A stretch of 51,112 bases of DNA from a virus. Lineage: Duplodnaviria; Caudoviricetes. The notes under the pieces are model-generated. The model worked only from the letters and a program-made list of their open reading frames with translations. It was not told the origin of the DNA and did not search any database. The stretch covers positions 1-51,112 of IMG/VR virus record IMGVR_UViG_3300027798_000058. The stretch is one strand, 5' to 3'. Made by a program: the position numbers and the translations under genes. How positions within the stretch are numbered: the stretch's first letter is position 1; each line of letters begins with the position of its first letter. Positions 12,444 through 39,409 of this stretch are shown piece after piece.

Positions 12444-15400
12444 TTGGCCGAGAAGCTATTCGTTTATAAAGTAGAAGATAGCGAAACCGGAGAAATCTAC
12501 GATGTAGAAGGCCCCGAAGGAGCTACTGCTGATGAGCTAGGAGAATTTGTTCTATCTCAAAACCTCGGCCAATCTTCTCCAGCCCCTGCCCAACAAGTTG
12601 CGCCTACCCAACAGCAAGCCCCGGCTATCCGTGCTCCTGGTGTAGACAAATCAACTGCTACTATGGCTTTGCCAGATACCTATAACAATGTGACTCGTAG
12701 TCTCGAGACTGTGCCCGGTGCTCAAGACTATATTAACAAAGCATTCTTCGGGAATAAAAGCTTTGGAGAACTGCAACGTGGGTGGGCAGAGATGTCAGCT
12801 CCAGGCCAGCCATTCGAAGGCATCCCTCTCGGCCCTACTACTCCTGCTGTCTGGGCCGAAGCTCGTCGTCGGTACGCCACAAACCCAACAGACAAACAGT
12901 TCTACGATACCTATGGCGTAGCTGCTCCTGTTAATCGTCCTACTGGTGTTGCTGATGAAAAAACTCCTGACTCAATGTTGGGAGAGTTTGGTAACGCAGC
13001 TGTCCGCTCTGCGTCTAACATGGCTAACAGCACCATTGGTCTGACTGCACAAGCAGCTGACATTGTAGGCGCTGATGAAACAGCAGAAGCTCTGCTCGAT
13101 GGTTACTTGTACAACCAAGCTGCTATTAACCAGACCTATCCGTCAGGCGCTAAGAACGTTGTAGACATACGGTCTTTCGGTGACGCGGGCATGAAAGCTG
13201 CCGCCATTCTTGGTGAGCTGACTCCACAGCTGGCTTCTTCCGTCGGCTTCGGTCTTATCGGCACGGCAGCTGCTAAGAAAATTGCTATGAGTACGGTCGA
13301 GCAAAGTGTCATAGACCTAGTAGAAAGCGGTATACAAAAAGAAATCGCTGAGCAGATGGTCCTCAAGACTGTGCAAGCTAAGGCGGCACGGGGCGCTATT
13401 GCTGGTACTACTGCATCTTCCGTAGCTCAATCGTCTGGTTCTATCTATGGCGACACCTATGGCGCTAACGGAGAACGCAGTCCTTGGCTATCTTTGTTTG
13501 CTGGTACAGCTGCTGGTAGCCTTGATGCCATTCTTCCCGCTATTGTAGCCAAGCGTCTTGGCCTCAACGGCGCTGTCGCTGACACAGCTATTGCACAAAG
13601 TCTTGTTAAGAAAGTTGGCAAGGACGCCGCCTCTGCTTTCCTAATGGAGGGCGGAACAGAAGCCCTTCAAACTATTATCGAAAATCTGCCTGCTGGCAAG
13701 TCAATCAACTGGGATAGTGTAGTAGAAGCGGCATTGTCTGGTGGCTTTGGCGGGTCTGTAGCTGGTGGCGCATCGAGTGCCTATGAAGGCAGCGTACAGA
13801 ATAAGGCTTTAGCTCAAGCGGCTCCCCCGAAGAATGCCTTCGAAGGGGACCCTATCAGTGTGCCTACCACACGGGGCAAGCGTGACGGCAAGAAGTACCT
13901 TGGCCAGATTGACAAGACTCAGAATGAAGTAGTTGCTCGTGTCGACCAGCTTACCCAGACCTGGGAGAACAAGCCTGTCTTCGAAGTATATAAGAACTTC
14001 AATGACGTAGACGGGATACCTAACGACACCGTTGGCGTGTACCGTGACGGCAAGGTGTACCTAAACACAGAAGCTATCGTTGCTGAAGCCAAGCAACGTG
14101 ACGTTACTCCTGATGACATCGTGTCATCGGTTACCTACCACGAAGCGCTTGGTCACTACGGTCTTACTCAGCAGTTCGGGGATGCGCTAGACACTACCCT
14201 GTCTAAAATCCTAGCCAACAGCACTATCTACCAGCAACGTGTAAACAACTGGATGGCTAAGAATCCTAACGCATATCCAGGCCGCGACAACCGTGACATA
14301 CTTGCCTTAGAAGAAATCCTAGCAGAGCGTAGTGAGAAAGGTCACATGCCTGCGTCCATCATTAACATCTTCAAGAACCAGATTAAGGACTTCGGTCGGC
14401 GAATGGGCCTTGACCTGCAGTACTCTACTCGTGAAGTAGAAACTATCCTTGGTATGGCACATGCTGCTGTAGTTAAGGGTCCGGCTCGTGATGTCCGCGA
14501 CAATGGCTATCGTACTATGTACGCCGGTGTTAACGCAGCTAATCCGCCTAAGACTTGGTTGGGCATGCGTGACGAGAAGCGTTGGTTCTCTGGGCCTGAC
14601 GGTCTTGCTCGCTTTGAGTTCTCTGACGCAAACGCTAAGCTATTTGAGGATGACCTCAAAAGACTTGCGGGTACTGCTACGTATCTGCCTGCAGTTCTGG
14701 AACACAAAGAACTGTTCAAGCAATACCCTCAACTACGAGACACTCGTATTGTAATGAGGGACATGGCGCCCGGTTTTCTGGGATCGTATGACCCAAGCAA
14801 GAATCTTATTGCTGTATCTACTACAAACCCTGACAAGCTTGGCACAATTTTGCATGAAATTCAGCACAACATTCAAGAGATTGAAGGCTTTGCCAAAGGC
14901 GGCAATTCCGAGACGGCTGTTGATTCGCTAAATCCTGAGATGACTTTACGGGCTGGCAAGAACCTTCTTGATTATAACAAGAAGAAGACGCAACAATTGG
15001 CTGTCGAAGTAGGGGCTATAGCAGCTGCTCGTGACATGCCAGAAGGCAGGCAAGTAATTGAAAATGCTGCTGTCGCTCGGGAAATCTACGCTGAGATGGA
15101 CGCTCGTGAGCGTTTCTTACAAGAAGAAAGCGAAAAGTTTAACTTTGGCAATCGTCTGACTAGAGACGATCTTCTGCAAGACTTTGAATATAATAAACTT
15201 AACGAAGAATACCGAAGTTTCTTTCTTGGCGTACAGGAAGTTGGAAGAAAGGCTTTGCGGACTGCCTTGTTCCCACAAGGATACTTCCAAGCATCTAAGC
15301 AAGACCAGCAAGAATGGGGTGACCTAAAGTATGCCCTAGAAGCTGGTCCTGAATACATGGCAACCAAGGAGCAGGACCTCTACGAAGCTGAGCAGCAGCT

Positions 15401-25900: not shown

Positions 25901-27730
25901 TTAGTGTGTCTCTGCCCAAGTCATGCCGACCTTAGCATCGCAGTCAATAGGAAGGCGGTAGTTAAAGAACTCACCGCTAGCATTAAAAGCTTTAGGGCAA
26001 ACGTCATTTGCAAATTCGTCTGCGTGTATTCTAAGTGCATCGTTCTGCCATTCATCATGTATGTCTCCTACTTTTAGTACATCTAATCGTCTCCGTCGTA
26101 CGTCGGCTGCTGTAAAGATAGCTGCCTTCTTCATCAGTCTTGACTCATCTCCTTGCAAGAGGTAACCAAGCCGAGTGTGCATTGTGGTGACGATAAGGGG
26201 AGTCCCGTCGCAAAGTCTAATGCGCCCACCTCGCGTGACCTGTCGCTCAAGGCTGTCGAGTAGTTGCTTAAGACCTGGGAAGTTTCCAATAAACCTTTCT
26301 TTAATTTGTTTACCATCTCGTGTCGTTCCGCCAATGATTTGTCCAACCTTAGCATCTCCTGCTCCGAGTAAGAAAGCATAGATGAAAGTCTTAGCAACAG
26401 CTCGTGATTGAAAGCCTCCCATCTGTTGGTTGTATGAGTGTGGGTCTCCATCTAATACTGCCTCCGTAAATTTCTTGTTGTTAAGATAGTGAGCGAGGAC
26501 TCGTAGCTGTATACCCTTAGCATCAACACCAATCAGTACTCGTTTGCTTGTATCCCTGACCGTCCATAGGTCACGGGCTTCATACGTATAGACGCCGTCC
26601 TGTCCCTTGAGAGGGCCGTCTGCCCCTACTCTTACGGCAGGGATGTTAGCGGTATTAGGATTGCTATGCCGATAGCGCAGAGTATTAGCGTACCACAGGT
26701 TGCCATGAATACACTTGGTCTCTTCATTGTATGCCTCAATCCATGTGTTAATCATGTTGGCCCGAGAGTTGTACTCAATCCATCGTGCTATAAGTCGGGC
26801 GCCTTGGTCGTCAGTCTCTTCTACAAACTTCTCAAGTGATGGGCTTAGCTTTCCCTTGTCAGTGGGCTTGGGCTTGCCTGTCTTAGTGAACTCTCCAGGA
26901 ATCCAACCGAGTCCAAGAAGTTTCTCAGCTCGTTGGTCAGGGCTTCCGATGTTGAAAGCAACGTAGTCATAGCAATCGTATCGGTCTCCGTCCATAACAT
27001 CAACTCGGACATACTGCTCGGTGTGCTTGGTAAAGTTAGCAGTTGGTTCGCCATCGTTCTTGTAAGGTTTCTTAAACGACTTGATGAGTTCGAGAACGGG
27101 AGGCCACTGCTCATGTATCTTCTCCTGTAGTTTGTTCTCCTCCTGCCGTAGCTTGGAGTAAAGAACGTGGGCCTGCTGGATATTGAATGCGAACCCTGTC
27201 TGCTGCTGCTTCTGTATCAGCTGCCATGACCGATGCTCTAGTTCAAGGCCCATGTCTGTGAACCCAAGCCGTGTCATACGGGTGACCAATACGTTGTATA
27301 CCTCGACACACAAGGCTGTGTCCTGTACACAATAGCGCATCATCTGGTCACTGAACTGGGAGAAGTCATGGAAGTCACCCTTGAGAAAGCGGAGGCGGAT
27401 ACCCCATGCCCCTAGCGAGTGACCCCCTGCGAGGGAGGGACTGAACAGCATCGACAGTATCATAGTGTCAATGATGTCAGCCATGCCCAAGCGTAGACCT
27501 AGCAAGCGGTTCAGGGTGGGTGCGTCATAGCCTATGATGTTGTGGCCTATGAACTTGCACCCGTCCTTGTGCTTGTCATTCATCCAGTCTCGTATGGCAT
27601 CGTGACCAACGAGGGATACTTCTTGACGTGTCTTTACATTCTTGGCGGCCATGCACCAGATGCGGTTAGAGGGTAGGTTGTCGCCCTCGATGTCGATGGC
27701 CCAGTACTTTTCGGTTGGGTTTAGGTACAT
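25901..27730 (-). CDS. DNA polymerase, family A (T7-like) with 3'-5' exonuclease
   Basis: Exo motifs DIE, HNIIGYD and YCVQD; motif A DAKGIQLR, motif B R..AKTFIYAFLLG, motif C IHDE. Confidence 0.95.
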   Translation of the reverse strand: MYLNPTEKYWAIDIEGDNLPSNRIWCMAAKNVKTRQEVSLVGHDAIRDWMNDKHKDGCKFIGHNIIGYDAPTLNRLLGLRLGMADIIDTMILSMLFSPSLAGGHSLGAWGIRLRFLKGDFHDFSQFSDQMMRYCVQDTALCVEVYNVLVTRMTRLGFTDMGLELEHRSWQLIQKQQQTGFAFNIQQAHVLYSKLRQEENKLQEKIHEQWPPVLELIKSFKKPYKNDGEPTANFTKHTEQYVRVDVMDGDRYDCYDYVAFNIGSPDQRAEKLLGLGWIPGEFTKTGKPKPTDKGKLSPSLEKFVEETDDQGARLIARWIEYNSRANMINTWIEAYNEETKCIHGNLWYANTLRYRHSNPNTANIPAVRVGADGPLKGQDGVYTYEARDLWTVRDTSKRVLIGVDAKGIQLRVLAHYLNNKKFTEAVLDGDPHSYNQQMGGFQSRAVAKTFIYAFLLGAGDAKVGQIIGGTTRDGKQIKERFIGNFPGLKQLLDSLERQVTRGGRIRLCDGTPLIVTTMHTRLGYLLQGDESRLMKKAAIFTAADVRRRRLDVLKVGDIHDEWQNDALRIHADEFANDVCPKAFNASGEFFNYRLPIDCDAKVGMTWAETH

Positions 27731-29364
27731 TAGAATCCTTCATCATCTCCAATCTGGCCACCATTCTCATAGGTCTCTGCCTCTTCGGGGTCTAGCTCTG
27801 TGAGACGGGCAGTGTCCTTGTTGTACCATAGGTAACACGCAGGTCCAGTATACCCGCAGAACCTATTCTTTTCCACCGTAATCTTAGTGATGTTACGGCG
27901 CCACTCAGATGGGTCAATCTTATCTCGCTGTAATCGAATAACGATATTAGCCAGTTGCTCGACACCTGCCGTGCCCCTAATCTGACCCTGTCTATTCGTA
28001 TGTATGACAGCAATGACGGCGATGTCCAGCTCCATCGTGAGCGTCTTGAGCTTGGTTGCAATTTCATCTAGCTGCTTTCTTTCGTCACCAGATTGGTCCG
28101 AGACAACAATAGAAAGATGGTCAAGGACAATATATTTGCACCCAAGAGCAGCCATATGTCTAACCTTGTCAATAACTTTATCGACAGAGTTGCTACCAAA
28201 ATGGTCCCAAAGAACAAGGCGGTTGTGGTTAACCACGTCATCAAAAGCTTGCTTAAGCTCAGCTTCATTCCTTTCAACACCTGGAATGTGGTACGGAATG
28301 CGATTGTGGATACTAAGGAGGCCAAGAGTAGTATCGCCATTAGGTTCTTCAAGATGTAATAGTCCAACACCATATCCTTTTTCAATAACTTCAGGGTTCA
28401 TTAGAAGACTGTGTTCAATGTGCTTGAGCAGGGCAGTCTTACCAACCCCTGTATCAGCAGTAACAATGACCATCTCTGAGAGACGGATACCGAATGTCAA
28501 ATCGTTAAGCCCCTTGAACGGGTACTGTACAGTAAAGGAAGACTTGCGATTGATAGTCTCCTCCCACATGTCCGAGCCTAGCTTAAGACCATCGGGCTTG
28601 TAGGTTGGCGCTTGCCACCACTCCTTAGTGAACTCATCAGAGATGCCGTTGAGTAGGTAGTCATTGGCATCCTTGTACTTACGCAGGTTTAAAACCTTTA
28701 CCTTACCAAGAGGAAAGGCAATGCTAGACACAGCTTTGGCTGCTTTTTTTCCTGCATCATCGCCGTCAAAACAAATGACAATCGTCTCAAAAGAATTAAG
28801 GTATTCGAAATCACGCCGAACATCTGCCTCGGCAGTGGTTGCATTGTGTACTGATACCACGGGATACTTAGAGCCCATGATTTGATAGGCAGCGAGTGCG
28901 TCGTCTTGTCCCTCCACAATAGTGATTGCCTTGGCACAGGCAGGCGGAAATGAGAACTTACCAAACAACCCAGCCCCATCCATAGACCCCTCAACAGAGA
29001 AGCCCTTGTTCTTGTAACGTACCTTGTTACCTATGTGCTCACCTGTCTCGGCATTAAACAGGGGGTACTTGGCCTCGAAGTTATCTCCGTCATGACCGGC
29101 GTGTACTTTGTATCGTTGAAGGGTGTCCTTAACAAACCCTCTCTCAGTGAATGGGCGAAAGACTTCCGTAATAGGGGTAAACGGTTTTACTTTAGTCTCT
29201 TTTGCTGCTGCTGTATCTTCATTGTCTGCTATCATATCTGCTTTCTCTGGAGGAATCCGTACGCCACACGAAAAACATTTGCCCCATCCGTTACTCTGGA
29301 TACTGTATGCATCTGTTGATGAACACTTAGGGCAGGGCAAGTGGCTCTGTTTCACTGGTCTCAT
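27730..29364 (-). CDS. T7 gp4-like primase-helicase
   Basis: CPKC...CFSC Zn finger; TOPRIM EG..D, D.D.AG and KDAND; helicase TGVGKT, LDHLS and KNRF.G.TG. Confidence 0.95.
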   Translation of the reverse strand: MRPVKQSHLPCPKCSSTDAYSIQSNGWGKCFSCGVRIPPEKADMIADNEDTAAAKETKVKPFTPITEVFRPFTERGFVKDTLQRYKVHAGHDGDNFEAKYPLFNAETGEHIGNKVRYKNKGFSVEGSMDGAGLFGKFSFPPACAKAITIVEGQDDALAAYQIMGSKYPVVSVHNATTAEADVRRDFEYLNSFETIVICFDGDDAGKKAAKAVSSIAFPLGKVKVLNLRKYKDANDYLLNGISDEFTKEWWQAPTYKPDGLKLGSDMWEETINRKSSFTVQYPFKGLNDLTFGIRLSEMVIVTADTGVGKTALLKHIEHSLLMNPEVIEKGYGVGLLHLEEPNGDTTLGLLSIHNRIPYHIPGVERNEAELKQAFDDVVNHNRLVLWDHFGSNSVDKVIDKVRHMAALGCKYIVLDHLSIVVSDQSGDERKQLDEIATKLKTLTMELDIAVIAVIHTNRQGQIRGTAGVEQLANIVIRLQRDKIDPSEWRRNITKITVEKNRFCGYTGPACYLWYNKDTARLTELDPEEAETYENGGQIGDDEGF

Positions 29365-29423: not shown

Positions 29424-29452
29424 ATTATACCGTGTATCGGACAGATTGTCAA
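29424..29452 (-). promoter_or_regulatory. sigma70 consensus promoter for primase-helicase/PolA
   Basis: TTGACA-ATCTGTCCGATACACGG-TATAAT (17-bp spacer). Confidence 0.85.
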
Positions 29453-29661
29453 GAAGTTTCTGGCTCCATGTCTATAGCGTCTTGACATTGCGTGTATAAA
29501 ATAGCAAACTCTAGCTGCTCGTCAATAATACTTTCATCATCATGACTGAACACATCGCCTATAACCTCGAGGCATGTGCCGCAAGGGTCAAAGTCCCCGT
29601 GGTCACGATTAATCTGTACCTCTTTCTCACCAAGGGTGGTGTTACAAATATGGCATCTCAT
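29449..29661 (-). CDS. small Zn-finger protein
   Basis: MRCHIC...CGTC; ATGA overlap with the ATP-grasp gene. Confidence 0.7.
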   Translation of the reverse strand: MRCHICNTTLGEKEVQINRDHGDFDPCGTCLEVIGDVFSHDDESIIDEQLEFAILYTQCQDAIDMEPETS

Positions 29662-30392
29662 AAATAATACTCCTTGAAATAATTAGCGTAATCAATAACT
29701 GTCTGACCCTCAAGGCCAGGTGCTGTGTTAACTTCTAGTACAGTGGCCAACTCATAGTGATTGTTCCAAACAATATCAACAGCGCCGAAGTCAAGGCCAA
29801 GGGCCCGCACTGCCAGCATACTCTGCTCAATGACTTGCTCGGGCGGGTTGACATCACCCCGTACATAGACATAGCCCGTGCCATGATTACGAACACGAGT
29901 ATCGGTAGCGGGTTGCCCAGCCCTGATACCCTTGCGTTGCATGCCGATGATGCCGTGCATACCTATGTGTATACGATACTCATCGCGCTTCTTCATATAC
30001 TTTACATACAGGGGTGCGTTGACAAGGTCGTCTCTAGTGTCAGCAATAACAATACCAGCACCACTGTGCCCATTGAGAATGGTGCGGCAAACAACAGGGA
30101 ATGCTTCGTCGGGTATGTCATCTCGGTTAGTCCAGAACGGGGGGATTTGAACACCCCTATTAGACAGGCAAACAAACGATTCAAGTTTATCGGCGGCAAT
30201 GCGTACATTATAGGGGTTGTTAATCATGTTGGGGTAGTTGGCTTGAGCAGATGACCCCCAGTTAATGATGGTATCGCGCCGACGAGGGCGGTAGCGTGAC
30301 CCCTGTAGGTATAGCACTCGGCCCCGAAGAGCGCGAGACAGGGTATGCGCGGACTTACTACCCTGCTTGTACGGGTATATTTTAACTGACAT
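29658..30392 (-). CDS. ATP-grasp peptide ligase (phiEco32-like)
   Basis: IINWG, GHSGAGI, EYRIH, LGLDFGAVD and LEVNTAPGL motifs. Confidence 0.9.
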   Translation of the reverse strand: MSVKIYPYKQGSKSAHTLSRALRGRVLYLQGSRYRPRRRDTIINWGSSAQANYPNMINNPYNVRIAADKLESFVCLSNRGVQIPPFWTNRDDIPDEAFPVVCRTILNGHSGAGIVIADTRDDLVNAPLYVKYMKKRDEYRIHIGMHGIIGMQRKGIRAGQPATDTRVRNHGTGYVYVRGDVNPPEQVIEQSMLAVRALGLDFGAVDIVWNNHYELATVLEVNTAPGLEGQTVIDYANYFKEYYL

Positions 30393-30491
30393 TTTACTGT
30401 CCTCTCTCTCTGTCTATGTCTTCTTGCTGGAACCTAAGAATCAAATCGTATAAGTCTCGGTCTAACTCTCGCTCAACGCCGTTGCCGTCTA

Positions 30492-31511
30492 CTAGAAAGT
30501 CTCTCTCCCTCTGTGATTGAAAGGGTTAGGGACGTATGCTTTGTTGATTAGTCCATCCCACTCATGCCAAGGAAACTCGAAGCACAATGGCTGCACAATG
30601 TGGAACGATTCCATGCAGCCTTGGTTGAAGTCGCGCTCGAACTGGTCGCCCACAATCTCCTCACAAAAAGAGGTGAGGCACTCATCCTGACGGCAGATGT
30701 TCTCAAGCATAAGCCGAGCGCCCTGCTCAGAGATGTCGTATGCAATCTGATTGGGATTATTATAGTTGTTGACAGCGTATTTAACTAGGTAATGCAAGAA
30801 CTTAGCCCACACTATAGCCTTCTCAGGGTCGTTAGGTTCTTGGCCACAGCGAAACTCGAACGAACCAAAGCGCCACAAAGTAAGGACATTGAGCGCTGAA
30901 TACTTACCCCCCTCCTCGCGCGGCGTCTGGCCGTGACGTAATAGCGTCTTCCATAAATTGAGTGTGGTGTTGCTGTCCTTGAACCCAAGACAGAAGTGAT
31001 TGCGAGTACGGTTAACCCCGTGCCACTTGATGAGTTGCTCCTCAAACACAGCCCACAGGATGAGGATAGATGTCAGCACATTGATACGCTGTGCACCTAC
31101 GTTGATGTGTACGTGTGTCGAGCAACGATTGCTGTTCTCTACCTTGGAACCAGCGGTATCCAGCTTCTCGAACAACCCATTAACAAGACTGTCTACCTCG
31201 TCAACTGCACAAGGGGTTGACAGGACATACTCTATACCGCCGTTACGCAGTGAGCCGTCAGGCTTAGCCTGCCACCGTGCTCCAGTGATAGGGCCAGCCA
31301 CATCAAACAAGTCGCCGCTGTTAGCGATAAGTCCACGGCCCTCCATCTCTAGCTCAAGACCGATAGTGCCGAGAGGTACGTTGCCTGTGTAGATAGGGCG
31401 GTTAAGGGCTAGGCCAGGGACGCCTGGCTTCTTGGCAAATGCCTTGCGATACTTAGTGAAGAACTCTTTGTTAGCCTCAGACATTGTATCAATACTCCTG
31501 TATATTGTCAA
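30492..31511 (-). CDS. putative amidoligase (Amidoligase_2-like, glutamine synthetase fold)
   Basis: GLELE.E, DGSLR..G.E, RCSTHVH.N, KYSALN and GSFEFR motifs. Start may be 31484. Confidence 0.85.
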   Translation of the reverse strand: MTIYRSIDTMSEANKEFFTKYRKAFAKKPGVPGLALNRPIYTGNVPLGTIGLELEMEGRGLIANSGDLFDVAGPITGARWQAKPDGSLRNGGIEYVLSTPCAVDEVDSLVNGLFEKLDTAGSKVENSNRCSTHVHINVGAQRINVLTSILILWAVFEEQLIKWHGVNRTRNHFCLGFKDSNTTLNLWKTLLRHGQTPREEGGKYSALNVLTLWRFGSFEFRCGQEPNDPEKAIVWAKFLHYLVKYAVNNYNNPNQIAYDISEQGARLMLENICRQDECLTSFCEEIVGDQFERDFNQGCMESFHIVQPLCFEFPWHEWDGLINKAYVPNPFNHRGRETF

Positions 31512-32154
31512 GCGTAAACTTAGGGTCTTTCATAATCTCTTCCCGATAGTACTTGAACTTCTCGAGAAGGTTAAGAGAGTTAGCGTTAGTAAAGATACCT
31601 ATACGTTCTGTCTCACGATACAGCCAGCGCAACCCAAGGTCGTCACGATACACTGCAAACTTACGAGAGAAACCAAGAGCGCTGCCCTCCTGTACGTTGA
31701 GGAGCACGTCACCTAGTGGTGGGTAGCTGTCATTGCACAGGTCTACGAAAGCCTCTGTGTCGTATACGTAATCCCACGCACGTTCGAACTGAGTGGTGGA
31801 GTAAGCTGGTGCATTGTAGAAAAAGTCTGCCCGTACATTAGTGGCATTAAGTCCGTGTAACCTAGTACGGGTAGCCCTGCGGTACAACAGGATAGCCCCG
31901 TACTTGTGGTTATTCAGCCAACCCAAGGTAGGTAGGTCGCGGAACTTATTGAACTTGGGAGAGTCAAGACGCTTACGCTGCCGCTTGCCATCGGGGTCAC
32001 CGCAGAAGGTGATGTTGGCACGGGGTATGCTGTCGTCAAAGTCTTCGCCATTCTCAATGTCGTGCACATATACGGGTAGGCTGTCGTACATAACGACAGT
32101 GCCTGCCAAACGCTCACGCGCTTGGATAGTGTCAGTCCAAAAGATATCTAGCAT
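31489..32154 (-). CDS. hypothetical protein of the peptide-ligase cluster
   Basis: LGW.N.......R...R....GL pattern; GGAG RBS before ATG at 32154. Confidence 0.65.
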   Translation of the reverse strand: MLDIFWTDTIQARERLAGTVVMYDSLPVYVHDIENGEDFDDSIPRANITFCGDPDGKRQRKRLDSPKFNKFRDLPTLGWLNNHKYGAILLYRRATRTRLHGLNATNVRADFFYNAPAYSTTQFERAWDYVYDTEAFVDLCNDSYPPLGDVLLNVQEGSALGFSRKFAVYRDDLGLRWLYRETERIGIFTNANSLNLLEKFKYYREEIMKDPKFTLDNIQEY

Positions 32155-32159
32155 GTTGC

Positions 32160-33032
32160 TTACTCCGTTGCTAAGCGAGGGTCTTTGCGAACTCTTGACC
32201 ACGGCCCACCCCAGCGGCCCAGCAATCTGTCCACTGCCAGCTCGGCAGTCATGTAGTCACCTGTATTGATGACCTCTTGTATACGTGCCTCAGTTAAGCC
32301 AATGACATCCTCAACTGTGCGGGCAGACCGCATCTTTTGAATAGCGGAATTGACAAGAGAGTACATGCACTCGCGGCGGTCACGATTAACAATCCAAGCA
32401 TTAGAAGGGGTGCGATACTCAACGCCGTATGGTTTGTAACGACACGCACCGGCCTTGCCGTACATCTCGCGGCGTCGAGGGTCGCGGTCAATGAACGTCA
32501 TAAACATACCGACAGTGGCATCCAACATCTTGATGAAGCCGTTGCAAATCTCGCGGTGTTCCTCGTTATCCGTAGGAATGTCAGCGCCCCAACCTACGTG
32601 AACGTGACCCGCTGCAGTACGGAAAGGACGAGTGCCGTCAGGACGGGGGTTCTCCTCGCCAGTGTACGCATTGAAGTCAGGGTCACAACCCAACTCAAGG
32701 GCAGCGGCAGGTTGGTTGGCCAGATACTTTTCAGAGAAATCTTGAGTCGGCTGGATAGCAAACGTATACTTCTTAGTCGTATTATTCTGAGCTACTCGCT
32801 TCTTCATCTCCTCAATAGTATTGATGATGTTCCTGTTGAACTGGTCGAAGGCGTAGGAGGTAGACACAGGGTCGATGTTAAACTCCAGCGCCATACCATC
32901 TACCTGATACGCACCGTTGGCCGTCTTGTGTGGGCTTTCCTTAGTACCCTCGACCATGCCGAAAGCACTGATTGCTTTGCCATTCTCACGCAGAAACAAC
33001 TCGGGGTCTGCGCCAATAGTAAATCCGTTCAT
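32160..33032 (-). CDS. phiEco32-like COOH-NH2 ligase type 2
   Basis: IGADPELF, GTK..P, QVDG.ALEFN, GCDPDFNAY, GHVHVG and RR.MYGKAG..R.KPYGVEYRT.SN motifs. Confidence 0.92.
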   Translation of the reverse strand: MNGFTIGADPELFLRENGKAISAFGMVEGTKESPHKTANGAYQVDGMALEFNIDPVSTSYAFDQFNRNIINTIEEMKKRVAQNNTTKKYTFAIQPTQDFSEKYLANQPAAALELGCDPDFNAYTGEENPRPDGTRPFRTAAGHVHVGWGADIPTDNEEHREICNGFIKMLDATVGMFMTFIDRDPRRREMYGKAGACRYKPYGVEYRTPSNAWIVNRDRRECMYSLVNSAIQKMRSARTVEDVIGLTEARIQEVINTGDYMTAELAVDRLLGRWGGPWSRVRKDPRLATE

Positions 33033-33044
33033 GCTATATACTCC

Positions 33045-34457
33045 TTAATTATACATGCTAAGTTTAATGGGGGTAACACAGGTGGTACAAATAAAATTAT
33101 TTTTATCAATGAACTCATGTACTTCTACTAAGTCACCTACTGGTGAATTGCAGTGGCAGCATACGCCCTTGGTGTTCTCCTCGAACTGCTCCACACTATA
33201 CTCTATCTCCTTAATGTTATCACGAATAAATGTGCCAACTTTCTTAACCTCCCGCACCGACACTGGCATGCGGGATGCTCTCCGCTGTTCGGAAAGGGAC
33301 GCGATGTTTACGAGCGACTTGTTTGATACGTCCGAGTGCCCGCTTTTGTTGGTTGGCGGAGAGCTCTTCGTATTCTTTTGAGGCAGGCAAAGAATTGGTT
33401 TGGGAAATCGAGGCGAGGGTGTCTGTCCCGTCTTGGAATCCAAGCCTCTCGCAGAAGTCTTGATGAAGGAGACGTTGCCAATGCTCGTACTCCCAGACTC
33501 GTCCGCTTTGCCAGTGGTATCCTGGGGGATGAGGTGAGCGGGTGCTCCCTCCGCGTCCCAAGGTATGATGTCGTCTATCTTGTCGTCGAGATTGTCTACC
33601 AGAAAAGGGTTAGCTACCTCTCCTCCCGCTGGCTTCCAGTCCTGACTGCCCTCTACTCGTGTCCATACCTTGGCATAGACGCCCGACATGGGGGCAACAG
33701 GCTCGGGCTTGGGGGGGATAGTCTTGATGGGCTTCATAGTAAGTACAGCCTCATTGACTGCAGCCTTGGCGTTGATAGTGAAAGACCACAGTGAGTGAGG
33801 TTTAATCTGAACATACTTACCCTCGCCATCATCCTTGATGCCATTCCACAAGGCCAGCTTACGCTCGACTGCACTGAACATCCAGACTTCAGAGGCCCAG
33901 AACATCATGTCCATATCTTTAGACCACGTAAACCAGAGAGGGCGCTCGTCATTGCGGATAAAGTTAAGGGTTTTCTTGTTGTCATCCCACCATACGCAGG
34001 CATACGCGCCCTTGACTACGTTGAACGTATTGTCGGGACCATTCTTGGCAAGGTGTCCATACAATACATCACTATCTACCCTGCTAGCACTGTATCCGTC
34101 CAGCTTGTAGTGTTCCCGCAATGTGCCGTTGTGCACACCAACTATGCCATCGTCGGGATAGTCAAAAGGATGTGCGTTCTTAAGGCTGATGTCGCCTACT
34201 GTACGTGAACGAGTGTGCCCAATAAGTGCGACTGCATCTCCACGCTCAATCTCTGACTCATACTTGCGATAGTCAAAGAGATTAGAGGGTGGGCCGACAG
34301 CCTTAACCCATGTGTACGTCTGGTCTGCATCGTTGCGTACCTTAATTACACCAGCACTGTCGCGGCCACGCACTTGGCACACGTCCATCATGTCCTTGAA
34401 CAGCGTATTCTTAGCGGTGTTAGTAATCTTACCCGCCATACCTACTATGCCACACAT
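33045..34457 (-). CDS. class II (Ntn) glutamine amidotransferase with C-terminal Zn finger
   Basis: MCGIVG, RG.DSAG, GHTR, NAHPF, HNGTL and DS motifs; terminal CxxC...CxxC after a low-complexity linker. Confidence 0.9.
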   Translation of the reverse strand: MCGIVGMAGKITNTAKNTLFKDMMDVCQVRGRDSAGVIKVRNDADQTYTWVKAVGPPSNLFDYRKYESEIERGDAVALIGHTRSRTVGDISLKNAHPFDYPDDGIVGVHNGTLREHYKLDGYSASRVDSDVLYGHLAKNGPDNTFNVVKGAYACVWWDDNKKTLNFIRNDERPLWFTWSKDMDMMFWASEVWMFSAVERKLALWNGIKDDGEGKYVQIKPHSLWSFTINAKAAVNEAVLTMKPIKTIPPKPEPVAPMSGVYAKVWTRVEGSQDWKPAGGEVANPFLVDNLDDKIDDIIPWDAEGAPAHLIPQDTTGKADESGSTSIGNVSFIKTSARGLDSKTGQTPSPRFPKPILCLPQKNTKSSPPTNKSGHSDVSNKSLVNIASLSEQRRASRMPVSVREVKKVGTFIRDNIKEIEYSVEQFEENTKGVCCHCNSPVGDLVEVHEFIDKNNFICTTCVTPIKLSMYN

Positions 34458-35227
34458 TAACTAGTCTCCTCTGCTGCCGTAAATAAATCGCTGTCGCCAT
34501 CGTCATCTTCTAGCGCCTCCAAATCAAACAACTCCCACTCAATAACGTGGTCGTACAGTTTGTTCATGCACCATGAACGATAGATGTCAGAGCCCACCTC
34601 GGGGTGGCCTTGAGTAAAGAACGAGCGGTCATCTACATAATAGCCTGCCTCAATCTCCTGCATGGTCTCGCCGTCAGACAAGTCCTCTGTCTGGTCATCG
34701 CACATAAACTTACGAGACACCTGACCAGAGCAGACGGCGGCGATGTCAATGTCCTCGTTCTCAATCAACATCTGGTGATGTATTGAGTTGGTGACAAGAA
34801 CATAGTTGTCCTCGAGGTCAGTGATGTAGTGGTTAGTGCCGCCGTGTCCCTCGACATGCTGCCACAGATGACCGCCATTCATAACGTGAATAAACTGTGC
34901 GCCACGACAGATACCAAACAGTGTCTTGTTGCGCTCGACTGCCTCGACATACACAGCAATCTCAGCGTCATCACGTTCACTAGACCAAGATGTCTCACGT
35001 ATAGGCTGTTGCCCATACAAGGCGGGGTTGACGTCAGCGCCGCCAGAGAACACCACGATGTCAGCGTCCTTGACACTGGTGGCACGGGTCATGCCAGACG
35101 CAGCCATCAGGCCGACAATCTGTGAATAGAACGCACCGCCAGTGACGAACACCTTGCGCCCATTAAAGTTAGGTAAATCAATACGTTCCCATGAACGGGG
35201 CGCTTGAGGTTTAATTGGAGGGGGCAT
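34457..35227 (-). CDS. class I glutamine amidotransferase / peptidase C26 (gamma-glutamyl hydrolase-like)
   Basis: GGADV.P.LYG, GICRGAQ (nucleophile Cys), NSIHHQ and QGHPE motifs. Confidence 0.88.
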   Translation of the reverse strand: MPPPIKPQAPRSWERIDLPNFNGRKVFVTGGAFYSQIVGLMAASGMTRATSVKDADIVVFSGGADVNPALYGQQPIRETSWSSERDDAEIAVYVEAVERNKTLFGICRGAQFIHVMNGGHLWQHVEGHGGTNHYITDLEDNYVLVTNSIHHQMLIENEDIDIAAVCSGQVSRKFMCDDQTEDLSDGETMQEIEAGYYVDDRSFFTQGHPEVGSDIYRSWCMNKLYDHVIEWELFDLEALEDDDGDSDLFTAAEETS

Positions 35228-36173
35228 TATAGAACATACCTTTCTCTTTCATATAAGGAATTACTACCTTGAAATACTCTTGATACGTAACCTCATCCGG
35301 CTTACGCAGCAGTACACGATTGTGAACAAACGGATTAGGTGGGCGGTATGAGTCAATCGACGAGTCCTCGTTACGAAAAATAGATAGTCGCTTGCGGAAC
35401 TCTTTGTCGTCAGCAATCAGGTCTTTGACAAAGTTTTCAGTATATCCTACCACGACAGGGCCTTGAAACAAATCGTGACAACCATACACTGACTTGCTGC
35501 GGCGATAGGTCAAGGTGCTGTAAGATTGCTGGCCCAAGTCACCCGCACAGAAGCGCTTCATACTCTCCATGTTAAGCAAATATGTGCTGGTGTGGAATGT
35601 GCGAGTCGTCACTATGTAGTCGTCGGGAAACTCTTGACTCATGCCGCCGGTCACACACATACATACCTGATAGGCAAAGTGAGGGTCAAACCCATCGTCA
35701 ACCAACTCTTTCCACTTGTTGAACTGCGTAACGCTGCGCTCGGAAAATGCGCGAGAGAATATCATAATCATCTGGAACAAGGGCTGCATAACATCAGACG
35801 ATACAATGATACCATTGTCAGCCACCCATTCGAGAGTGCGGTGCTCTGGCTTATTGACAATGAAGCGTGAAGCGAACGACTCGTTCAACATCCAATCAAG
35901 AAACTGCCATGCCGCAGCACACTCCTGCATCTTGTAGCGGGTAAGCGCAATCTCTGTGCCAACCAGAGCCACATCGTCTACCTTGTTATATCCAAGGGAA
36001 GCATGACAGGCTGCGTTAGGATTGACGGAAGAATTGGCGTTAAGCCCGACAATAATGTACTTGGTACAGCACATGTACTCCCTCTCCATCTCCTTGTCGA
36101 AAAACTTTATACACCTATCGTACTGCTTGTCTGTAAATTGAGGGTCAAACTCAAGGTCTTTTATCAATGCCAT
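35211..36173 (-). CDS. hypothetical protein, first gene of the peptide-ligase cluster
   Basis: 320-aa ORF with a GGAG RBS, overlapping the next gene; no family recognised. Confidence 0.7.
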   Translation of the reverse strand: MALIKDLEFDPQFTDKQYDRCIKFFDKEMEREYMCCTKYIIVGLNANSSVNPNAACHASLGYNKVDDVALVGTEIALTRYKMQECAAAWQFLDWMLNESFASRFIVNKPEHRTLEWVADNGIIVSSDVMQPLFQMIMIFSRAFSERSVTQFNKWKELVDDGFDPHFAYQVCMCVTGGMSQEFPDDYIVTTRTFHTSTYLLNMESMKRFCAGDLGQQSYSTLTYRRSKSVYGCHDLFQGPVVVGYTENFVKDLIADDKEFRKRLSIFRNEDSSIDSYRPPNPFVHNRVLLRKPDEVTYQEYFKVVIPYMKEKGMFYNAPSN

Positions 36174-36333: not shown

Positions 36334-36362
36334 TTGACAACTAGTGCAAAGTGTGGTATAAT
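36334..36362 (+). promoter_or_regulatory. sigma70 consensus promoter, antisense to the surrounding genes
   Basis: TTGACA-ACTAGTGCAAAGTGTGG-TATAAT with a 17-bp spacer and extended -10. Confidence 0.8.
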
Positions 36363-36393: not shown

Positions 36394-36939
36394 CTATATA
36401 CCTACCTCCCGAATAAGGGTGTAGAAGGCAGGACGATAACGTCTGGTAAACAAAGGCCGCTGTTTATCTAGATGCAGCCATTTGTTAGACATACACAACT
36501 GATAGTCATGAAAGACTGATATACCAGAACGCTGACCAGATGAATTGAAATTGAATATAAGTGGTAAGTCATCTACTGGATACCGCTCGTCAAGGACAGC
36601 AGCAGCAACATCAAGAATCTCAACACACTTATGGGTATGGAAACGATTGTCGTCGAGCAGGGACTTATCCTTGCGGCGAGTATTGTATCTGTACGCATAC
36701 TCATCAGCCAGTGCATACCCATGCTCGAGCATCCAAGAGAACGCTAGACGGGACGAACGAGTCCAGACAGCGCAAGGGTGGTTGACATGGGTATTTTTGT
36801 ATACACCGTCTGTCTGACCACGTGAACGCAACGCTGTGGAGAGCAACTGAGCAGTCTCGAGCAGCATTTTATTTACACGCTTATCGTCTAGGGATATCGC
36901 GCACAACTGTGGGCATGGTGACGTTAGGAATATGTTCAT
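36394..36939 (-). CDS. pyrimidine-dimer DNA glycosylase-like protein (DenV-related family)
   Basis: MNIF....P..CA..L.DK.V.KM.LE.AQLLS, YK.TH.NHPC.VW and EY.YRY...HKC motifs; GGAGG RBS. Confidence 0.8.
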   Translation of the reverse strand: MNIFLTSPCPQLCAISLDDKRVNKMLLETAQLLSTALRSRGQTDGVYKNTHVNHPCAVWTRSSRLAFSWMLEHGYALADEYAYRYNTRRKDKSLLDDNRFHTHKCVEILDVAAAVLDERYPVDDLPLIFNFNSSGQRSGISVFHDYQLCMSNKWLHLDKQRPLFTRRYRPAFYTLIREVGI

Positions 36940-37059
36940 TAAGTAATTGCCTCCGAGAGTCCGTATCGCGGACGATACGTCTCTCACTAAAGGTTAGACC
37001 ATTGGCTCCCGTTAAGGGCCACACAGAATCAGACGAACGCCTTAGGGGTATCTGCCATC

Positions 37060-39380: not shown

Positions 39381-39409
39381 TTGACATTTGCCTGAAAATA
39401 TGGTATAAT
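39381..39409 (+). promoter_or_regulatory. sigma70 consensus promoter for the packaging/virion operon
   Basis: TTGACA-TTTGCCTGAAAATATGG-TATAAT, 26 bp upstream of terS. Confidence 0.88.

What the first reader, a model, noticed from the sequence alone, without database searches (positions are those of the whole stretch)
29449..36173. Seven-gene peptide-ligase factory: three ligases of two folds, two glutamine amidotransferase classes and two unknown proteins
Seen: a tightly coupled minus-strand run of unknown 320 aa, class I GATase/peptidase C26, class II GATase with a Zn finger, COOH-NH2 ligase type 2, unknown ~220 aa, amidoligase and ATP-grasp ligase, followed by a small Zn-finger gene. Catalytic motifs look intact, and the block takes about 15% of the genome. 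Known: related clusters occur in phiEco32-like and LUZ24/PaP3-like podophages and were predicted to make peptide or amide modifications, possibly of the cell wall; I know of no established product. Inference: this variant, with a C26 gamma-glutamyl hydrolase-like enzyme and no recognisable gamma-glutamyl cyclotransferase in a P22-type virion background, could add and remove a gamma-glutamyl or amide tag on peptidoglycan precursors or host proteins, or make a small anti-defence or superinfection-exclusion metabolite.
Basis: partly seen in the sequence, partly recalled or inferred. Interest (0 to 1): 0.8.

Follow-up and report, generated by a model that had tools for sequence, protein, structure and literature searches.

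The report
Known phage amide-ligase gene cassette
This uncultured marine phage carries an intact copy of a gene cassette, recognised in phage genomes since 2009, that makes and trims glutamate-type amide bonds and whose product is still unknown, so it is a well-conserved example rather than a new system.

Summary
Window 29449-36173 (minus strand) carries eight tightly packed genes:
- unknown 320 aa (A)
- class I GATase/Peptidase_C26 (B)
- Ntn class II GATase with a C-terminal Zn ribbon (C)
- COOH-NH2 ligase PF14395 (D)
- unknown 221 aa (E)
- Amidoligase_2 (F)
- RimK-like ATP-grasp (G)
- a 70-aa CxxC..CxxC protein (H)

Family-conserved residues are all present.

This is the phiEco32/RIO-1/LUZ24-type cassette, called a "putative peptidoglycan modification" module in print. 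It appears here in the layout shared by Zobellviridae phages (CVT22, K4, CW02).

Counts from 80 IMG/VR loci:

| Gene | Present |
|---|---|
| E | 72/72 |
| F | 72/72 |
| G | 71/72 |
| C | 64/64 |
| B | 61/64 |
| A | 55/64 |
| H | 26/69 |
| GGCT | 8/53 |
| primase-helicase directly downstream | 69/69 |

So "C26 and no GGCT" is the common form, not a special variant.

Both unknowns are conserved cassette members. A belongs to an unnamed family of 553 cluster representatives. E has an SH3/Tudor-like N-domain, and there is only weak predicted-complex support for E contacting D/F.

The product and target remain unknown, and I found no DNA-hypermodification genes. This scan has already reported the same cassette on other DNA, in at least 30 genomes.

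The parts
35211..36173 (-). A: unknown 320-aa cassette protein (P0001). It belongs to an unnamed family. Conserved residues are C56-H57, R141, E145, H194, R267 and the PPNPF motif at 278-282.
   Evidence: - No Pfam, NCBIfam or PDB sequence hit.
- 553 cluster representatives at E<=1e-3.
- Conserved residues come from the 129-sequence alignment A3.
- None of the 129 members matches a meaningful Pfam family.
- The AF2 model has pLDDT 77.8.
- BFVD Foldseek hits are uncharacterised proteins of CW02 (2.8e-8), CVT22 (7.4e-7) and GAP52 (1e-3).
- The best PDB hits by VIA are only PafA and Dop at Z 4.3.
34457..35227 (-). B: class I glutamine amidotransferase / Peptidase_C26-type Cys-His-Glu hydrolase, 256 aa.
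   Evidence: - Pfam PF07722, 7e-21.
- phrog_7218, 1e-32.
- Solved Lin1909 3fij, 4.9e-10, and PuuD 6vtv, 3.5e-3.
- The best NCBIfam hits are gamma-glutamyl-CDP-amidate hydrolase and PuuD, both far below their cut-offs.
- G105-x-C107-R-G109 and H208-P-E210 are 100% conserved in 61 sequences.
33045..34457 (-). C: Ntn class II glutamine amidotransferase domain (about residues 1-230), a long S/P/K-rich linker, and a C-terminal CxxC..CxxC Zn ribbon. 470 aa in total, with no synthase domain.
   Evidence: - Pfam GATase_6, 2.2e-16, covering residues 76-190.
- PurF 8w7d, 2e-9, over residues 1-119.
- The protein starts M-C-G-I-V-G.
- The x-C-G-x-x-G N-terminus is present in 68 of 76 homologues.
- C433, C436, C457 and C460 are conserved in 94-95% of 73 sequences.
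- A C-terminal Cys pair-of-pairs is seen in 11 of 11 lineages.
32160..33032 (-). D: phiEco32-type COOH-NH2 ligase (PF14395), 290 aa.
   Evidence: - Pfam, 37.9 bits (cut-off 25).
- phrog_3815, 4.7e-76.
- 318 phage records by tblastn.
- Residues invariant in 59 sequences: D9-P10-E11, E50, C116, D119, R138, H143, H145, E205, R207.
- No solved relative by sequence.
31489..32154 (-). E: unknown 221-aa cassette protein. It always lies between D and F. It has an N-terminal SH3/Tudor/KOW-like barrel.
   Evidence: - phrog_11055, 9.1e-10.
- The AF2 model has pLDDT 89.4.
- VIA gives Z about 5 to Tudor/KOW/SH3 domains, over residues 1-105 only.
- Present in 72 of 72 surveyed loci.
- Its profile reaches CVT22, K4, CW02 and Vp_R1.
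- Predicted complex with D and F: score 0.32, best control 0.00, rated weak support.
30492..31484 (-). F: Amidoligase_2 (PF12224), 330 aa counted from ATG 31484.
   Evidence: - Pfam, 34.5 bits (cut-off 22).
- phrog_7469, 2.1e-45.
- Start revised.
- Residues invariant in 48 sequences: E44, E46, E48, E85, H124, H126, R159, E210, R212.
- No solved relative by sequence.
29658..30392 (-). G: RimK-like ATP-grasp ligase, 244 aa. Alignments to solved RimK begin only at G residue 36-58.
   Evidence: - phrog_2599, 3.6e-69.
- Solved RimK 7qys, 3.9e-9, and 5zct, 4.2e-7.
- NCBIfam rimK_fam, 1.9e-8, below its cut-off.
- K69, R103, E138, R140, K154, D206, E220 and N222 are conserved in at least 98% of 77 sequences.
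29449..29661 (-). H: 70-aa CxxC..CxxC protein with an acidic C-terminal tail. It is a lineage-specific add-on.
   Evidence: - Sequence.
- Homologues found only in close relatives.
- Present in 26 of 69 surveyed loci.
- Not detectably related to the Zn ribbon of C.
- It is not a missing primase Zn domain, because the primase has its own CPKC..CFSC motif.
29424..29452 (-). Perfect sigma-70-type promoter consensus (TTGACA, 17 nt, TATAAT). It sits in the 84-nt gap between H and the primase-helicase gene and marks the downstream edge of the cassette.
   Evidence: This is a consensus match only; function was not shown.
27730..29364 (-). Primase-helicase (Toprim + DnaB_C). It is the invariant downstream neighbour of the cassette.
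   Evidence: - Pfam hits.
- It follows the cassette in 69 of 69 surveyed loci.
- It also follows the cassette in CVT22, K4, CW02, Kuravirus 172-1 and a PaP3-like phage.

Best explanation
The block is an intact, Zobellviridae-layout copy of the known phiEco32/RIO-1/LUZ24-type phage amidoligase cassette. It is a cytoplasmic enzyme set, probably expressed early. It builds a glutamate-containing, amide-linked product and trims or amidates it.

Inferred steps:
1. D (COOH-NH2 ligase), F (Amidoligase_2) and G (RimK-like ATP-grasp) each make one amide bond from a carboxylate and an amine, using ATP. G most likely adds an alpha-linked glutamate.
2. C (an Ntn glutaminase domain with no synthase domain, tethered to a Zn ribbon) and B (a C26-type Cys-His-Glu hydrolase) cleave a glutamine or gamma-glutamyl amide. 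This either supplies ammonia for an amidation or removes a gamma-glutamyl group.
3. E is a non-enzymatic partner of the D-E-F core.
4. A is a conserved accessory protein of unknown activity.

Shown here: the gene set, its conservation, the presence of the family-conserved residues, the lack of hydrophobic membrane-type segments, and the fixed position in front of primase-helicase.

Inferred: every chemical step. The acceptor is not known. It could be a small molecule, a cell-wall precursor or a protein.
For: Family-conserved residues are all present in the window's proteins:
- B: C107, H208, E210.
- C: Cys2, H81, R83, N110-G111, D128.
- D: E11, E50, H143, H145, R138, E205, R207.
- F: E44, E46, E48, H124, H126, R159, E210, R212.
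- G: K69, R103, E138, R140, D206, E220, N222.
That they are the catalytic residues is recalled family knowledge, not tested.

The same order occurs in L001-L004 at 27-80% identity and in cultured CVT22, K4, CW02 and PQ867848.

The core C, D, F, G is present in 11 of 11 lineage loci, including Kuravirus, Bruynoghevirus and Grimontviridae.

Survey of 80 IMG/VR loci:

| Gene | Present |
|---|---|
| E | 72/72 |
| F | 72/72 |
| G | 71/72 |
| C | 64/64 |
| B | 61/64 |
| A | 55/64 |
| primase-helicase | 69/69 |

No 19-residue window exceeds Kyte-Doolittle 1.6 in any of the eight proteins.

Published context:
- A passage in PMC7082346 says the homologous predicted peptidoglycan-modification genes of phage HP1 were expressed immediately.
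- Passages in PMC5498523 and PMC11945000 describe the same module in RIO-1-like and LUZ24-like phages.

The closest named relatives of B are gamma-glutamyl-amide hydrolases (PuuD, gamma-glutamyl-CDP-amidate hydrolase), although below their cut-offs.

The D family is essentially phage-only. Only 26 loci were found among 185,579 species genomes, and all are in MAGs, mostly on contigs of about 40-50 kb.
Against: - No step of the chemistry was observed, and no product is known for any member of the cassette in the literature I could search.
- The key papers, Iyer et al. 2009 and Hardies et al. 2013, were not held. Their arguments are cited only through other papers and from recall.
- G matches Pfam RimK below the cut-off.
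- B resembles ammonia-delivering GATase subunits (carbamoyl-phosphate synthase small chain, 6.9e-6) about as well as it resembles hydrolases. Hydrolase versus ammonia donor is therefore open.
- A and E have no assignable activity.
- Early expression is taken from a distant relative, not from this phage.
Confidence: 0.6

Rival explanations
1. Peptidoglycan-precursor modification, the hypothesis in print. The ligases would add unusual amide or peptide links to cytoplasmic UDP-MurNAc-peptide or lipid II stem peptides, and the hydrolases would amidate or trim them. This would change the wall to block superinfection or to prepare for lysis.
For: - It is the reading given in passages of PMC5498523, PMC11945000 and PMC10580990.
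- All eight proteins lack hydrophobic membrane-type segments, so only cytoplasmic precursors could be reached. That is consistent with known precursor-level amidation by MurT/GatD (recalled).
- Hosts of cultured carriers are Gram-negative bacteria.
Against: - No cassette protein matches a Mur ligase, Fem or cell-wall-binding family.
- No experiment supports this reading in any paper I could read.
- The invariant neighbour is primase-helicase, not the lysis genes.
Confidence: 0.2
2. Protein tagging. G would extend, and D and F would attach, glutamate or gamma-glutamyl-amide tails on a host or phage protein, in the way RimK acts on ribosomal protein S6. B and C would trim the tail. A and E would be target adaptors.
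For: - The nearest solved relatives of G are RimK enzymes.
- The top VIA hits of A, though weak, are the Pup ligase PafA and the depupylase Dop (Z 4.3, rmsd 4.3-4.4 A, 164-169 residues aligned). Three further carboxylate-amine ligases (1tt4, 2gwc, 3ig5) are also among the top 11 rows.
- E has a Tudor/SH3-like barrel.
- E gives a weak-support score with D and F: 0.32, best control 0.00. The mark was reached by 58 of 80 solved complexes and 2 of 110 mismatched pairs, but scores at or below 0.60 are more often wrong than right. The runs agree in at least 72% of contacts, and partner pLDDT is at least 83.
- C is tethered to a Zn ribbon by a long linker, which suits docking on a macromolecule.
Against: - Z 4.3 is below the level at which unrelated folds commonly score (note).
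- Profile comparison finds no A-D or A-F relation.
- A keeps only two conserved Glu residues. From recall, that is few for a metal-dependent ligase.
- The conserved E-[YFIL] C-terminus of E holds only in the window's own sub-lineage. E is therefore not a general C-terminal substrate.
Confidence: 0.12
3. DNA or nucleotide hypermodification. The cassette would decorate a base, before or after replication, with an amino-acid or amide group to escape restriction.
For: - The cassette sits directly upstream of primase-helicase and PolA in 69 of 69 loci.
- Passages of PMC8989533 report amidoligase and amidotransferase domains next to thymidine-hypermodification genes in metagenomic contigs.
- A passage of PMC11990801 says Gordonclarkvirinae, which carry the cassette, resist RM systems without a known modification pathway.
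Against: - No thymidylate-synthase-family hydroxymethylase is present in the whole record.
- No kinase, pyrophosphorylase, DpdA or Que family appeared among the proteins I scanned. Not every ORF of the window was scanned.
- DNA of the LUZ24-like phage U17, which carries the module, was sensitive to 11 of 16 restriction enzymes (passage in PMC11945000).
- The authors of PMC11990801 attribute the resistance to other genes.
Confidence: 0.05
4. Remodelling of a glutamylated cofactor, thiol or polyamine. The cassette would act as a phage version of the gamma-glutamyl cycle, working on folate-type polyglutamate tails, a glutathione-like peptide or gamma-glutamyl polyamines to serve nucleotide synthesis or DNA packaging.
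For: - C26 is the gamma-glutamyl hydrolase family, and B hits PuuD.
- The RimK family also contains the cofactor glutamate ligase MptN, which G hits at 2e-6, below its cut-off.
- Relatives add a GGCT.
- A class II RNR lies in the same module.
Against: - No FolC/Mur-type, GshA/GshB-equivalog or polyamine-enzyme match reaches a cut-off.
- The analogy rests on recalled pathway knowledge.
- The two phage-only partner proteins A and E are not explained.
Confidence: 0.03

Closest known systems
Zobellviridae copies of the cassette: Pseudomonas phage K4 gp20-gp28 (PA11-like), Citrobacter phage CVT22, Salinivibrio phage CW02 gp2-gp12
   Same: - The gene content and order are the same: A-like protein, GATase I, GATase II, COOH-NH2 ligase, a protein of about 185-200 aa, amidoligase, ATP-grasp, then primase-helicase.
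- The A and E profiles hit their unnamed proteins.
   Different: - Identity is only 37-43% for D.
- Extra small ORFs are interspersed in those phages.
- H is absent from them.
- CW02 also has a GGCT.
- The window's portal is P22-type, at most about 36% identical to any cultured phage portal.
phiEco32 / 7-11 / GAP52 and LUZ24 / PaP3 cassettes (Kuravirus 172-1 gp099-gp107; vB_PaeP_p2-10_Or1 orf41-48)
   Same: - They share the core of COOH-NH2 ligase, a protein of about 200 aa, Amidoligase_2, Ntn GATase II with C-terminal Cys pairs, and ATP-grasp, placed in front of primase-helicase.
- In GAP52, two unnamed proteins lie just upstream of the ligase. Their lengths (290 and 314 aa) equal those of the BFVD structural matches to A.
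   Different: - No C26 gene.
- A GGCT is present.
- GATase II follows the amidoligase instead of preceding D.
- The ATP-grasp protein is longer (296-398 aa).
- Neither A nor E is linked to their unnamed proteins by sequence: hhalign probability is 23 at best for E and below 1 for A.
RIO-1-like 'seven-gene peptidoglycan modification cassette' (PSA-HP1 ORFs 40-47; passage in PMC5498523)
   Same: - It is the same named enzyme set, with the same placement among the replication genes.
- It is reported as expressed immediately on infection (passage in PMC7082346).
   Different: - It includes a GGCT.
- I did not fetch or align the HP1 or RIO-1 locus itself. A RIO-1 protein appears only as a weak BFVD match to A (E 0.016).
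Cellular gamma-glutamyl amide pathways that pair a GS-like ligase with a C26 hydrolase (PuuA/PuuD putrescine pathway; recalled)
   Same: B is in the C26 family and hits PuuD. D and F are annotated as carboxylate-amine ligases.
   Different: - All matches are far below the equivalog cut-offs.
- The D family is absent from isolate genomes.
- There are three ligases plus two phage-only proteins, not one ligase.

Membership tests
phiEco32/RIO-1/LUZ24-type phage amidoligase cassette | COOH-NH2 ligase of family PF14395 | tested here: met
   37.9 bits against a cut-off of 25. phrog_3815, 4.7e-76.
phiEco32/RIO-1/LUZ24-type phage amidoligase cassette | Second GS-like ligase, Amidoligase_2 PF12224 | tested here: met
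   34.5 bits against a cut-off of 22. The ExExE, HxH and R residues are invariant in 48 sequences.
phiEco32/RIO-1/LUZ24-type phage amidoligase cassette | RimK-like ATP-grasp ligase | tested here: met
   phrog_2599, 3.6e-69. RimK 7qys, 3.9e-9. The Pfam RimK hit alone is below its cut-off, 17.2 vs 21 bits.
phiEco32/RIO-1/LUZ24-type phage amidoligase cassette | Stand-alone Ntn class II glutamine amidotransferase | tested here: met
   GATase_6, 60.5 bits. The N-terminus is MCGIVG. No synthase domain is present; instead there is a linker plus a Zn ribbon.
phiEco32/RIO-1/LUZ24-type phage amidoligase cassette | Gamma-glutamyl cyclotransferase gene | tested here: not met
   No PF06094 match in the record, and no hit with an HMM built from phage GGCTs. 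The feature is optional in this layout, at 8 of 53 loci, so its absence does not exclude membership.
phiEco32/RIO-1/LUZ24-type phage amidoligase cassette | Position in the early/replication module, directly upstream of primase-helicase | tested here: met
   The same holds in 69 of 69 surveyed loci and in five cultured lineages.
Peptidase_C26 / class I GATase (protein B) | Cys-His-Glu triad in the G-x-C-x-G and H-x-E motifs | tested here: met
   C107, H208 and E210 are 100% conserved in 61 sequences. Pfam, 75.4 bits. The assignment of these residues to the triad is recalled.
Glutamine-synthetase / GCL / PafA-type carboxylate-amine ligase fold (protein A) | Structural match to the fold, plus a cluster of conserved acidic metal ligands | tested here: inconclusive
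   VIA gives Z 4.3 (PafA, Dop), 3.5 (YbdK-like 1tt4) and 2.9/2.7 (GCL), all in the noise range. Foldseek against the PDB found nothing. Only E145 and E299 are conserved acidic residues. hhalign to D and F is negative, but the D-F control is negative too.
Thymidine hypermodification pathway (5-hmdU kinase / aGPT-Pplase type) | dUMP hydroxymethylase of the thymidylate-synthase family in the genome | tested here: not met
   No PF00303 match in the complete record, while the control genomes ring in 10 of 14.
Thymidine hypermodification pathway (5-hmdU kinase / aGPT-Pplase type) | 5-HMUDK kinase and aGPT-Pplase genes | tested here: inconclusive
   None was found among the 27 window proteins scanned with Pfam and/or PHROGs. 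The remaining ORFs of the window were not scanned.
Zobellviridae (virus family) | Shared core genome and virion module with the family's members | not tested
   Only the cassette and replication genes were compared. The portal is P22-type and at most about 36% identical to any cultured phage portal. No taxonomic analysis was done.

The most novel reading that the evidence does not exclude
The cassette may not be a metabolite or cell-wall pathway. It could be a macromolecule-directed amide-tagging machine that acts at the onset of replication.

In this reading:
- A (possibly a very derived PafA/GCL-like fold) and E (a Tudor/SH3-like barrel) would be target-recognition subunits.
- E would dock on the amidoligase.
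- The glutaminase would be tethered through its Zn ribbon.
- Together they would write, and partly erase, a glutamyl or amide mark on a host or phage protein, or on a nucleic-acid-bound factor.

This would explain why the cassette precedes primase-helicase in 69 of 69 loci, and why it occurs in MAG contigs and in no isolate genome.
Probability: 0.1. Interest if true: 0.8.

Novelty: new member of a known kind. Interest (0 to 1): 0.3.

Why it matters
The cassette is one of the most widespread conserved enzyme sets in lytic podophage-type genomes. The D family alone gives 318 cultured phage records and at least 570 IMG/VR stretches. By recall it was predicted in 2009, and in the papers I could read it still has no known product.

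This copy adds no new kind of system. It does supply three things:
- A clean, minimal eight-gene example.
- Definitions of two conserved partner families, A and E.
- Survey numbers showing which genes are core (C, D, E, F, G), near-core (A, B) and optional (H, GGCT).

These could guide which genes to express together when someone finally assays the product.

Tried and rejected
- **Sequence searches with A and E against cultured phages.** tblastn found no match.
- **Foldseek against the PDB, for A and E.** Nothing at E<=0.001.
- **ESM Atlas, for A and E.** Only chance-level rows, and the Atlas models are poor, with pLDDT 0.34 and 0.30.
- **PDB profile searches with A1 and A3.** The hits were designed repeat proteins and are spurious.
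- **Pfam on 129 A-family members.** No meaningful family.
- **Pfam on the unnamed cassette proteins of Kuravirus, Bruynoghevirus, CVT22 and Vp_R1.** One sub-cut-off NMN_transporter hit and nothing else.
- **hhalign of A against D, F and G, and of E against D, F and G.**
  - All negative.
  - The D-versus-F control was also negative, so these negatives say little.
- **A3 profile against the Kuravirus, Bruynoghevirus and Vp_R1 ORFs.** No hit.
- **E as a C-terminal ligation substrate.** Rejected, because the E-[YFIL] end is restricted to the window's sub-lineage.
- **H as a detached primase Zn domain.** Rejected, because the primase has its own.
- **H as a paralogue of the Zn ribbon of C.** Rejected.
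  - The window's H scores 3.9 bits.
  - None of the 3 hits among 5732 small ORFs belongs to the H family.
- **The TTGACA-17-TACAAT match at 31511-31483 as a promoter for F.** Rejected. It lies in the coding end of E, and its -10 element overlaps the ATG of F.
- **Cellular homologues that might give context.** Only 26 MAG loci were found, most on phage-sized contigs.
- **Terminal repeats of the record.** None at 20-100 nt.
- **Technical failures.**
  - One Pfam call failed on wrong coordinates. The seven other small neighbouring proteins in that call were therefore never scanned against Pfam; only PHROGs covers six of them.
- **Papers not available.**
  - Iyer et al. 2009 and Hardies et al. 2013 were not held.
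  - Supplements of the papers I cite were not seen. They may hold expression or annotation tables that bear on the early-expression claim.

Full report
**What is there**

On the minus strand, window 29449-36173 holds eight ORFs:

| Gene | Coordinates | Length |
|---|---|---|
| A | 35211-36173 | 320 aa |
| B | 34457-35227 | 256 aa |
| C | 33045-34457 | 470 aa |
| D | 32160-33032 | 290 aa |
| E | 31489-32154 | 221 aa |
| F | 30492-31484 | 330 aa |
| G | 29658-30392 | 244 aa |
| H | 29449-29661 | 70 aa |

Pfam places four of them above the curated cut-offs: B in Peptidase_C26/GATase, C in class II GATase domains, D in COOH-NH2_lig and F in Amidoligase_2. G reaches Pfam RimK only below the cut-off. 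It matches phrog_2599 at 3.6e-69 and solved RimK proteins at 3.9e-9. A and E have no Pfam, NCBIfam or PDB sequence match.

Two starts were corrected:
- E begins at the Met 16 codons into the ORF, because 23 of 23 homologues cover only 74-94% of the longer ORF.
- F begins at ATG 31484, 4 nt after the stop of E.

The genes overlap or are separated by at most 12 nt, except for a 99-nt gap before G and an 84-nt gap after H. The block is about 13% of the record. The record is the whole window, an IMG/VR virus record that CheckV rates complete.

**Surroundings**

- Downstream, in transcription order, lie primase-helicase, family A DNA polymerase, a PD-(D/E)XK/Cas4-like nuclease, an endonuclease, an RNase H-like exonuclease and a class II ribonucleotide reductase.
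- Upstream lie a T4 endonuclease V-like protein and small unknown genes.
- The other strand carries the large terminase and a P22-type portal.
- A perfect sigma-70-type consensus sits in the gap between H and the primase-helicase gene, so the replication genes may have their own promoter.
- No tRNA genes are present.

**Are the enzymes intact?**

In alignments of 48 to 77 homologues, the residues conserved in each family are all present in the window's proteins:
- B: G-x-C107-R-G and H208-P-E210, in 100% of 61 sequences.
- C: H81, R83, N110-G111, D128 and the four Cys of the C-terminal ribbon.
- G: K69, R103, E138, R140, K154, D206, E220, N222.
- D: D9-P-E11, E50, R138, H143, H145, E205, R207.
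- F: E44, E46, E48, H124, H126, R159, E210, R212.

C starts M-C-G-I-V-G, and 68 of 76 homologues keep the x-C-G-x-x-G start. That these are the catalytic residues is recalled family knowledge; no active site was modelled. No 19-residue window exceeds Kyte-Doolittle 1.6 in any of the eight proteins, so none shows a hydrophobic membrane-type segment.

**The two unknowns**

Protein A:
- A has eight close relatives in the large protein collection, and 553 cluster representatives at E<=1e-3 with a profile.
- A 129-sequence alignment shows invariant C56, R141, P281 and F282. H57, E145, H194, R267, N280 and E299 are nearly invariant. That pattern suggests an enzyme or metal site.
- None of the 129 members matches a meaningful Pfam family.
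- Its AF2 model (pLDDT 77.8) has no Foldseek match in the PDB.
- By VIA-align against 48,161 chains, the best rows are PafA and Dop (Z 4.3, rmsd 4.3-4.4 A, 164-169 residues). A YbdK-like protein (Z 3.5) and two glutamate-cysteine ligases (Z 2.9, 2.7) follow.
- Five of the top eleven rows therefore come from one ligase superfamily. The scores are in the noise range, however, so I treat this as a lead only.
- Against predicted viral structures, A matches unnamed proteins of CW02 (2.8e-8), CVT22 (7.4e-7) and GAP52 (1e-3 and 0.09).
- In GAP52, the two genes just upstream of the COOH-NH2 ligase encode proteins of exactly the lengths of those two matches, 290 and 314 aa.

Protein E:
- Its AF2 model has pLDDT 89.4.
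- It has an N-terminal SH3/Tudor/KOW-like barrel (Z about 5, residues 1-105). The second half was barely tested by the list.

**Conservation**

- Four IMG/VR contigs found with the A profile carry A-B-C-D-E-F-G-H followed by primase-helicase and PolA in the same order, at 27-80% identity.
- Cultured Zobellviridae have the same layout: CVT22, K4, CW02 and an oyster-associated phage. The A and E profiles hit their unnamed proteins.
- Kuravirus 172-1 and a PaP3-like phage carry a related version. It has two unnamed proteins, D, a protein of about 200 aa, F, GATase II, ATP-grasp and GGCT, then primase-helicase. Vp_R1 shares C, D, F, G, an E homologue and a GGCT, but no primase-helicase lies within the stretch fetched.
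- C, D, F and G are present in 11 of 11 of these loci, and B in 8 of 11.
- D alone hits 318 cultured phage records.

I then surveyed 80 further IMG/VR loci, the best 80 of at least 570 D-encoding stretches. Four of them are the same contigs as L001-L004. A gene was counted only where the flank was long enough:

| Gene | Present |
|---|---|
| E | 72/72 |
| F | 72/72 |
| G | 71/72 |
| primase-helicase | 69/69 |
| C | 64/64 |
| B | 61/64 |
| A | 55/64 |
| H | 26/69 |
| GGCT | 8/53 |

Among 185,579 species genomes, only 26 loci encode a D relative. All are in MAGs, mostly on contigs of about 40-50 kb. The family is therefore essentially restricted to phages, and there is no cellular operon to borrow a function from.

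**What is known**

[quoted passage not shown] They list phiEco32, 7-11, PA11, tf, LUZ24, PaP3 and CW02 as carriers.
- PMC11945000 repeats the hypothesis for a LUZ24-like phage.
- PMC10580990 notes amidoligase and GATase genes in OM43 phages.
- PMC7082346 reports that the HP1 copy was expressed immediately on infection.
- I found no paper reporting a product.
- The founding analyses, Iyer et al. 2009 and Hardies et al. 2013, were not held.
- This scan has already reported the same cassette in at least 30 other genomes, with the same conclusion.

**Mechanism**

The best-supported reading is general. Three ATP-dependent carboxylate-amine ligases form amide bonds. Two Cys hydrolases of the glutamine/gamma-glutamyl type either deliver ammonia or remove a gamma-glutamyl group.

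Points that bear on this:
- B's closest named relatives are gamma-glutamyl-amide hydrolases. It resembles carbamoyl-phosphate synthase small chains about as well.
- C has no synthase domain. It is joined by a long low-complexity linker to a Zn ribbon that is conserved in all lineages. That suggests docking on a partner.
- A predicted complex of D, F and E (E scored as the partner) gave 0.32, against a best control of 0.00.
  - The mark was reached by 58 of 80 solved complexes and 2 of 110 mismatched pairs.
  - Scores at or below 0.60 are more often wrong than right.
  - The runs agree in at least 72% of contacts, and partner pLDDT is at least 83.
  - The tool's verdict was weak support.
  - The control that replaced F scored 0.00, which hints that the predicted contact is with F.
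- The acceptor is unknown.

**The DNA-modification rival**

For it:
- The invariant linkage to primase-helicase.
- A remark in PMC8989533 that amidoligase and amidotransferase domains accompany thymidine-hypermodification genes.
- The unexplained RM resistance of Gordonclarkvirinae.

Against it:
- The record has no thymidylate-synthase-family gene.
- No modification family was seen among the proteins scanned.
- DNA of a LUZ24-like carrier was cut by 11 of 16 restriction enzymes.

**Verdict**

The kinship and the "no known product" statement are right. The claim of a distinctive C26-without-GGCT variant is not, because that is the majority form.
- This is a new member of a known kind. Its value is as a compact reference copy, and for the definition of the A and E partner families.

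Noticed in passing
window 36334-36362 (+), 29452-29424 (-), 39381-39409 (+): Three perfect 12-of-12 sigma-70 consensus sites (TTGACA, 17 nt, TATAAT). The one at 36334-36362 lies in the 220-nt gap upstream of A. It points away from the cassette, antisense to the early genes. The one at 39381-39409 precedes the plus-strand late genes.
   Followed up: no
window 36394-36987 (-): A T4 endonuclease V-like protein (Pfam Pyr_excise 3.1e-7; phrog_624 5.9e-40) lies directly upstream of the cassette. It is conserved at 76% identity in contig L002. There, 1.9 kb of other DNA separates it from A.
   Followed up: partly
loci L013-L092, GATase II homologues: In 16 of the 68 homologues with the x-C-G-x-x-G start, the codon before the catalytic Cys is ATT or ATC rather than ATG, GTG or TTG. 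This suggests non-canonical start codons for this Ntn enzyme.
   Followed up: no
loci L030-L092 (for example L032, L036, L061): In many relatives an ATP-grasp gene sits between B and C. In some it replaces the copy after F (6 loci with order A B G C D E F I J). In others it is additional (6 loci with two copies).
   Followed up: no
L003:5874-6311, L004:2632-3150: A GGCT-like gene lies immediately upstream of A in the more distant relatives. It is absent from the window and from L001/L002, so GGCT was gained or lost within this lineage.
   Followed up: partly
window 33270-33750 (-), residues about 235-395 of protein C: A long Ser/Pro/Lys-rich low-complexity linker joins the glutaminase domain to the Zn ribbon. 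Total protein length varies from 392 to 653 aa between lineages.
   Followed up: no
window 12444-17984 (+): A single 1846-aa ORF in the structural module. It was not examined.
   Followed up: no
L093-L118: Cassette-bearing contigs of about 40-50 kb are binned into MAGs labelled Patescibacteria, Saccharibacteria, Pseudanabaena, Colwellia and others. These look like phage genomes carried along in binning, so the MAG labels are not reliable host assignments.
   Followed up: no
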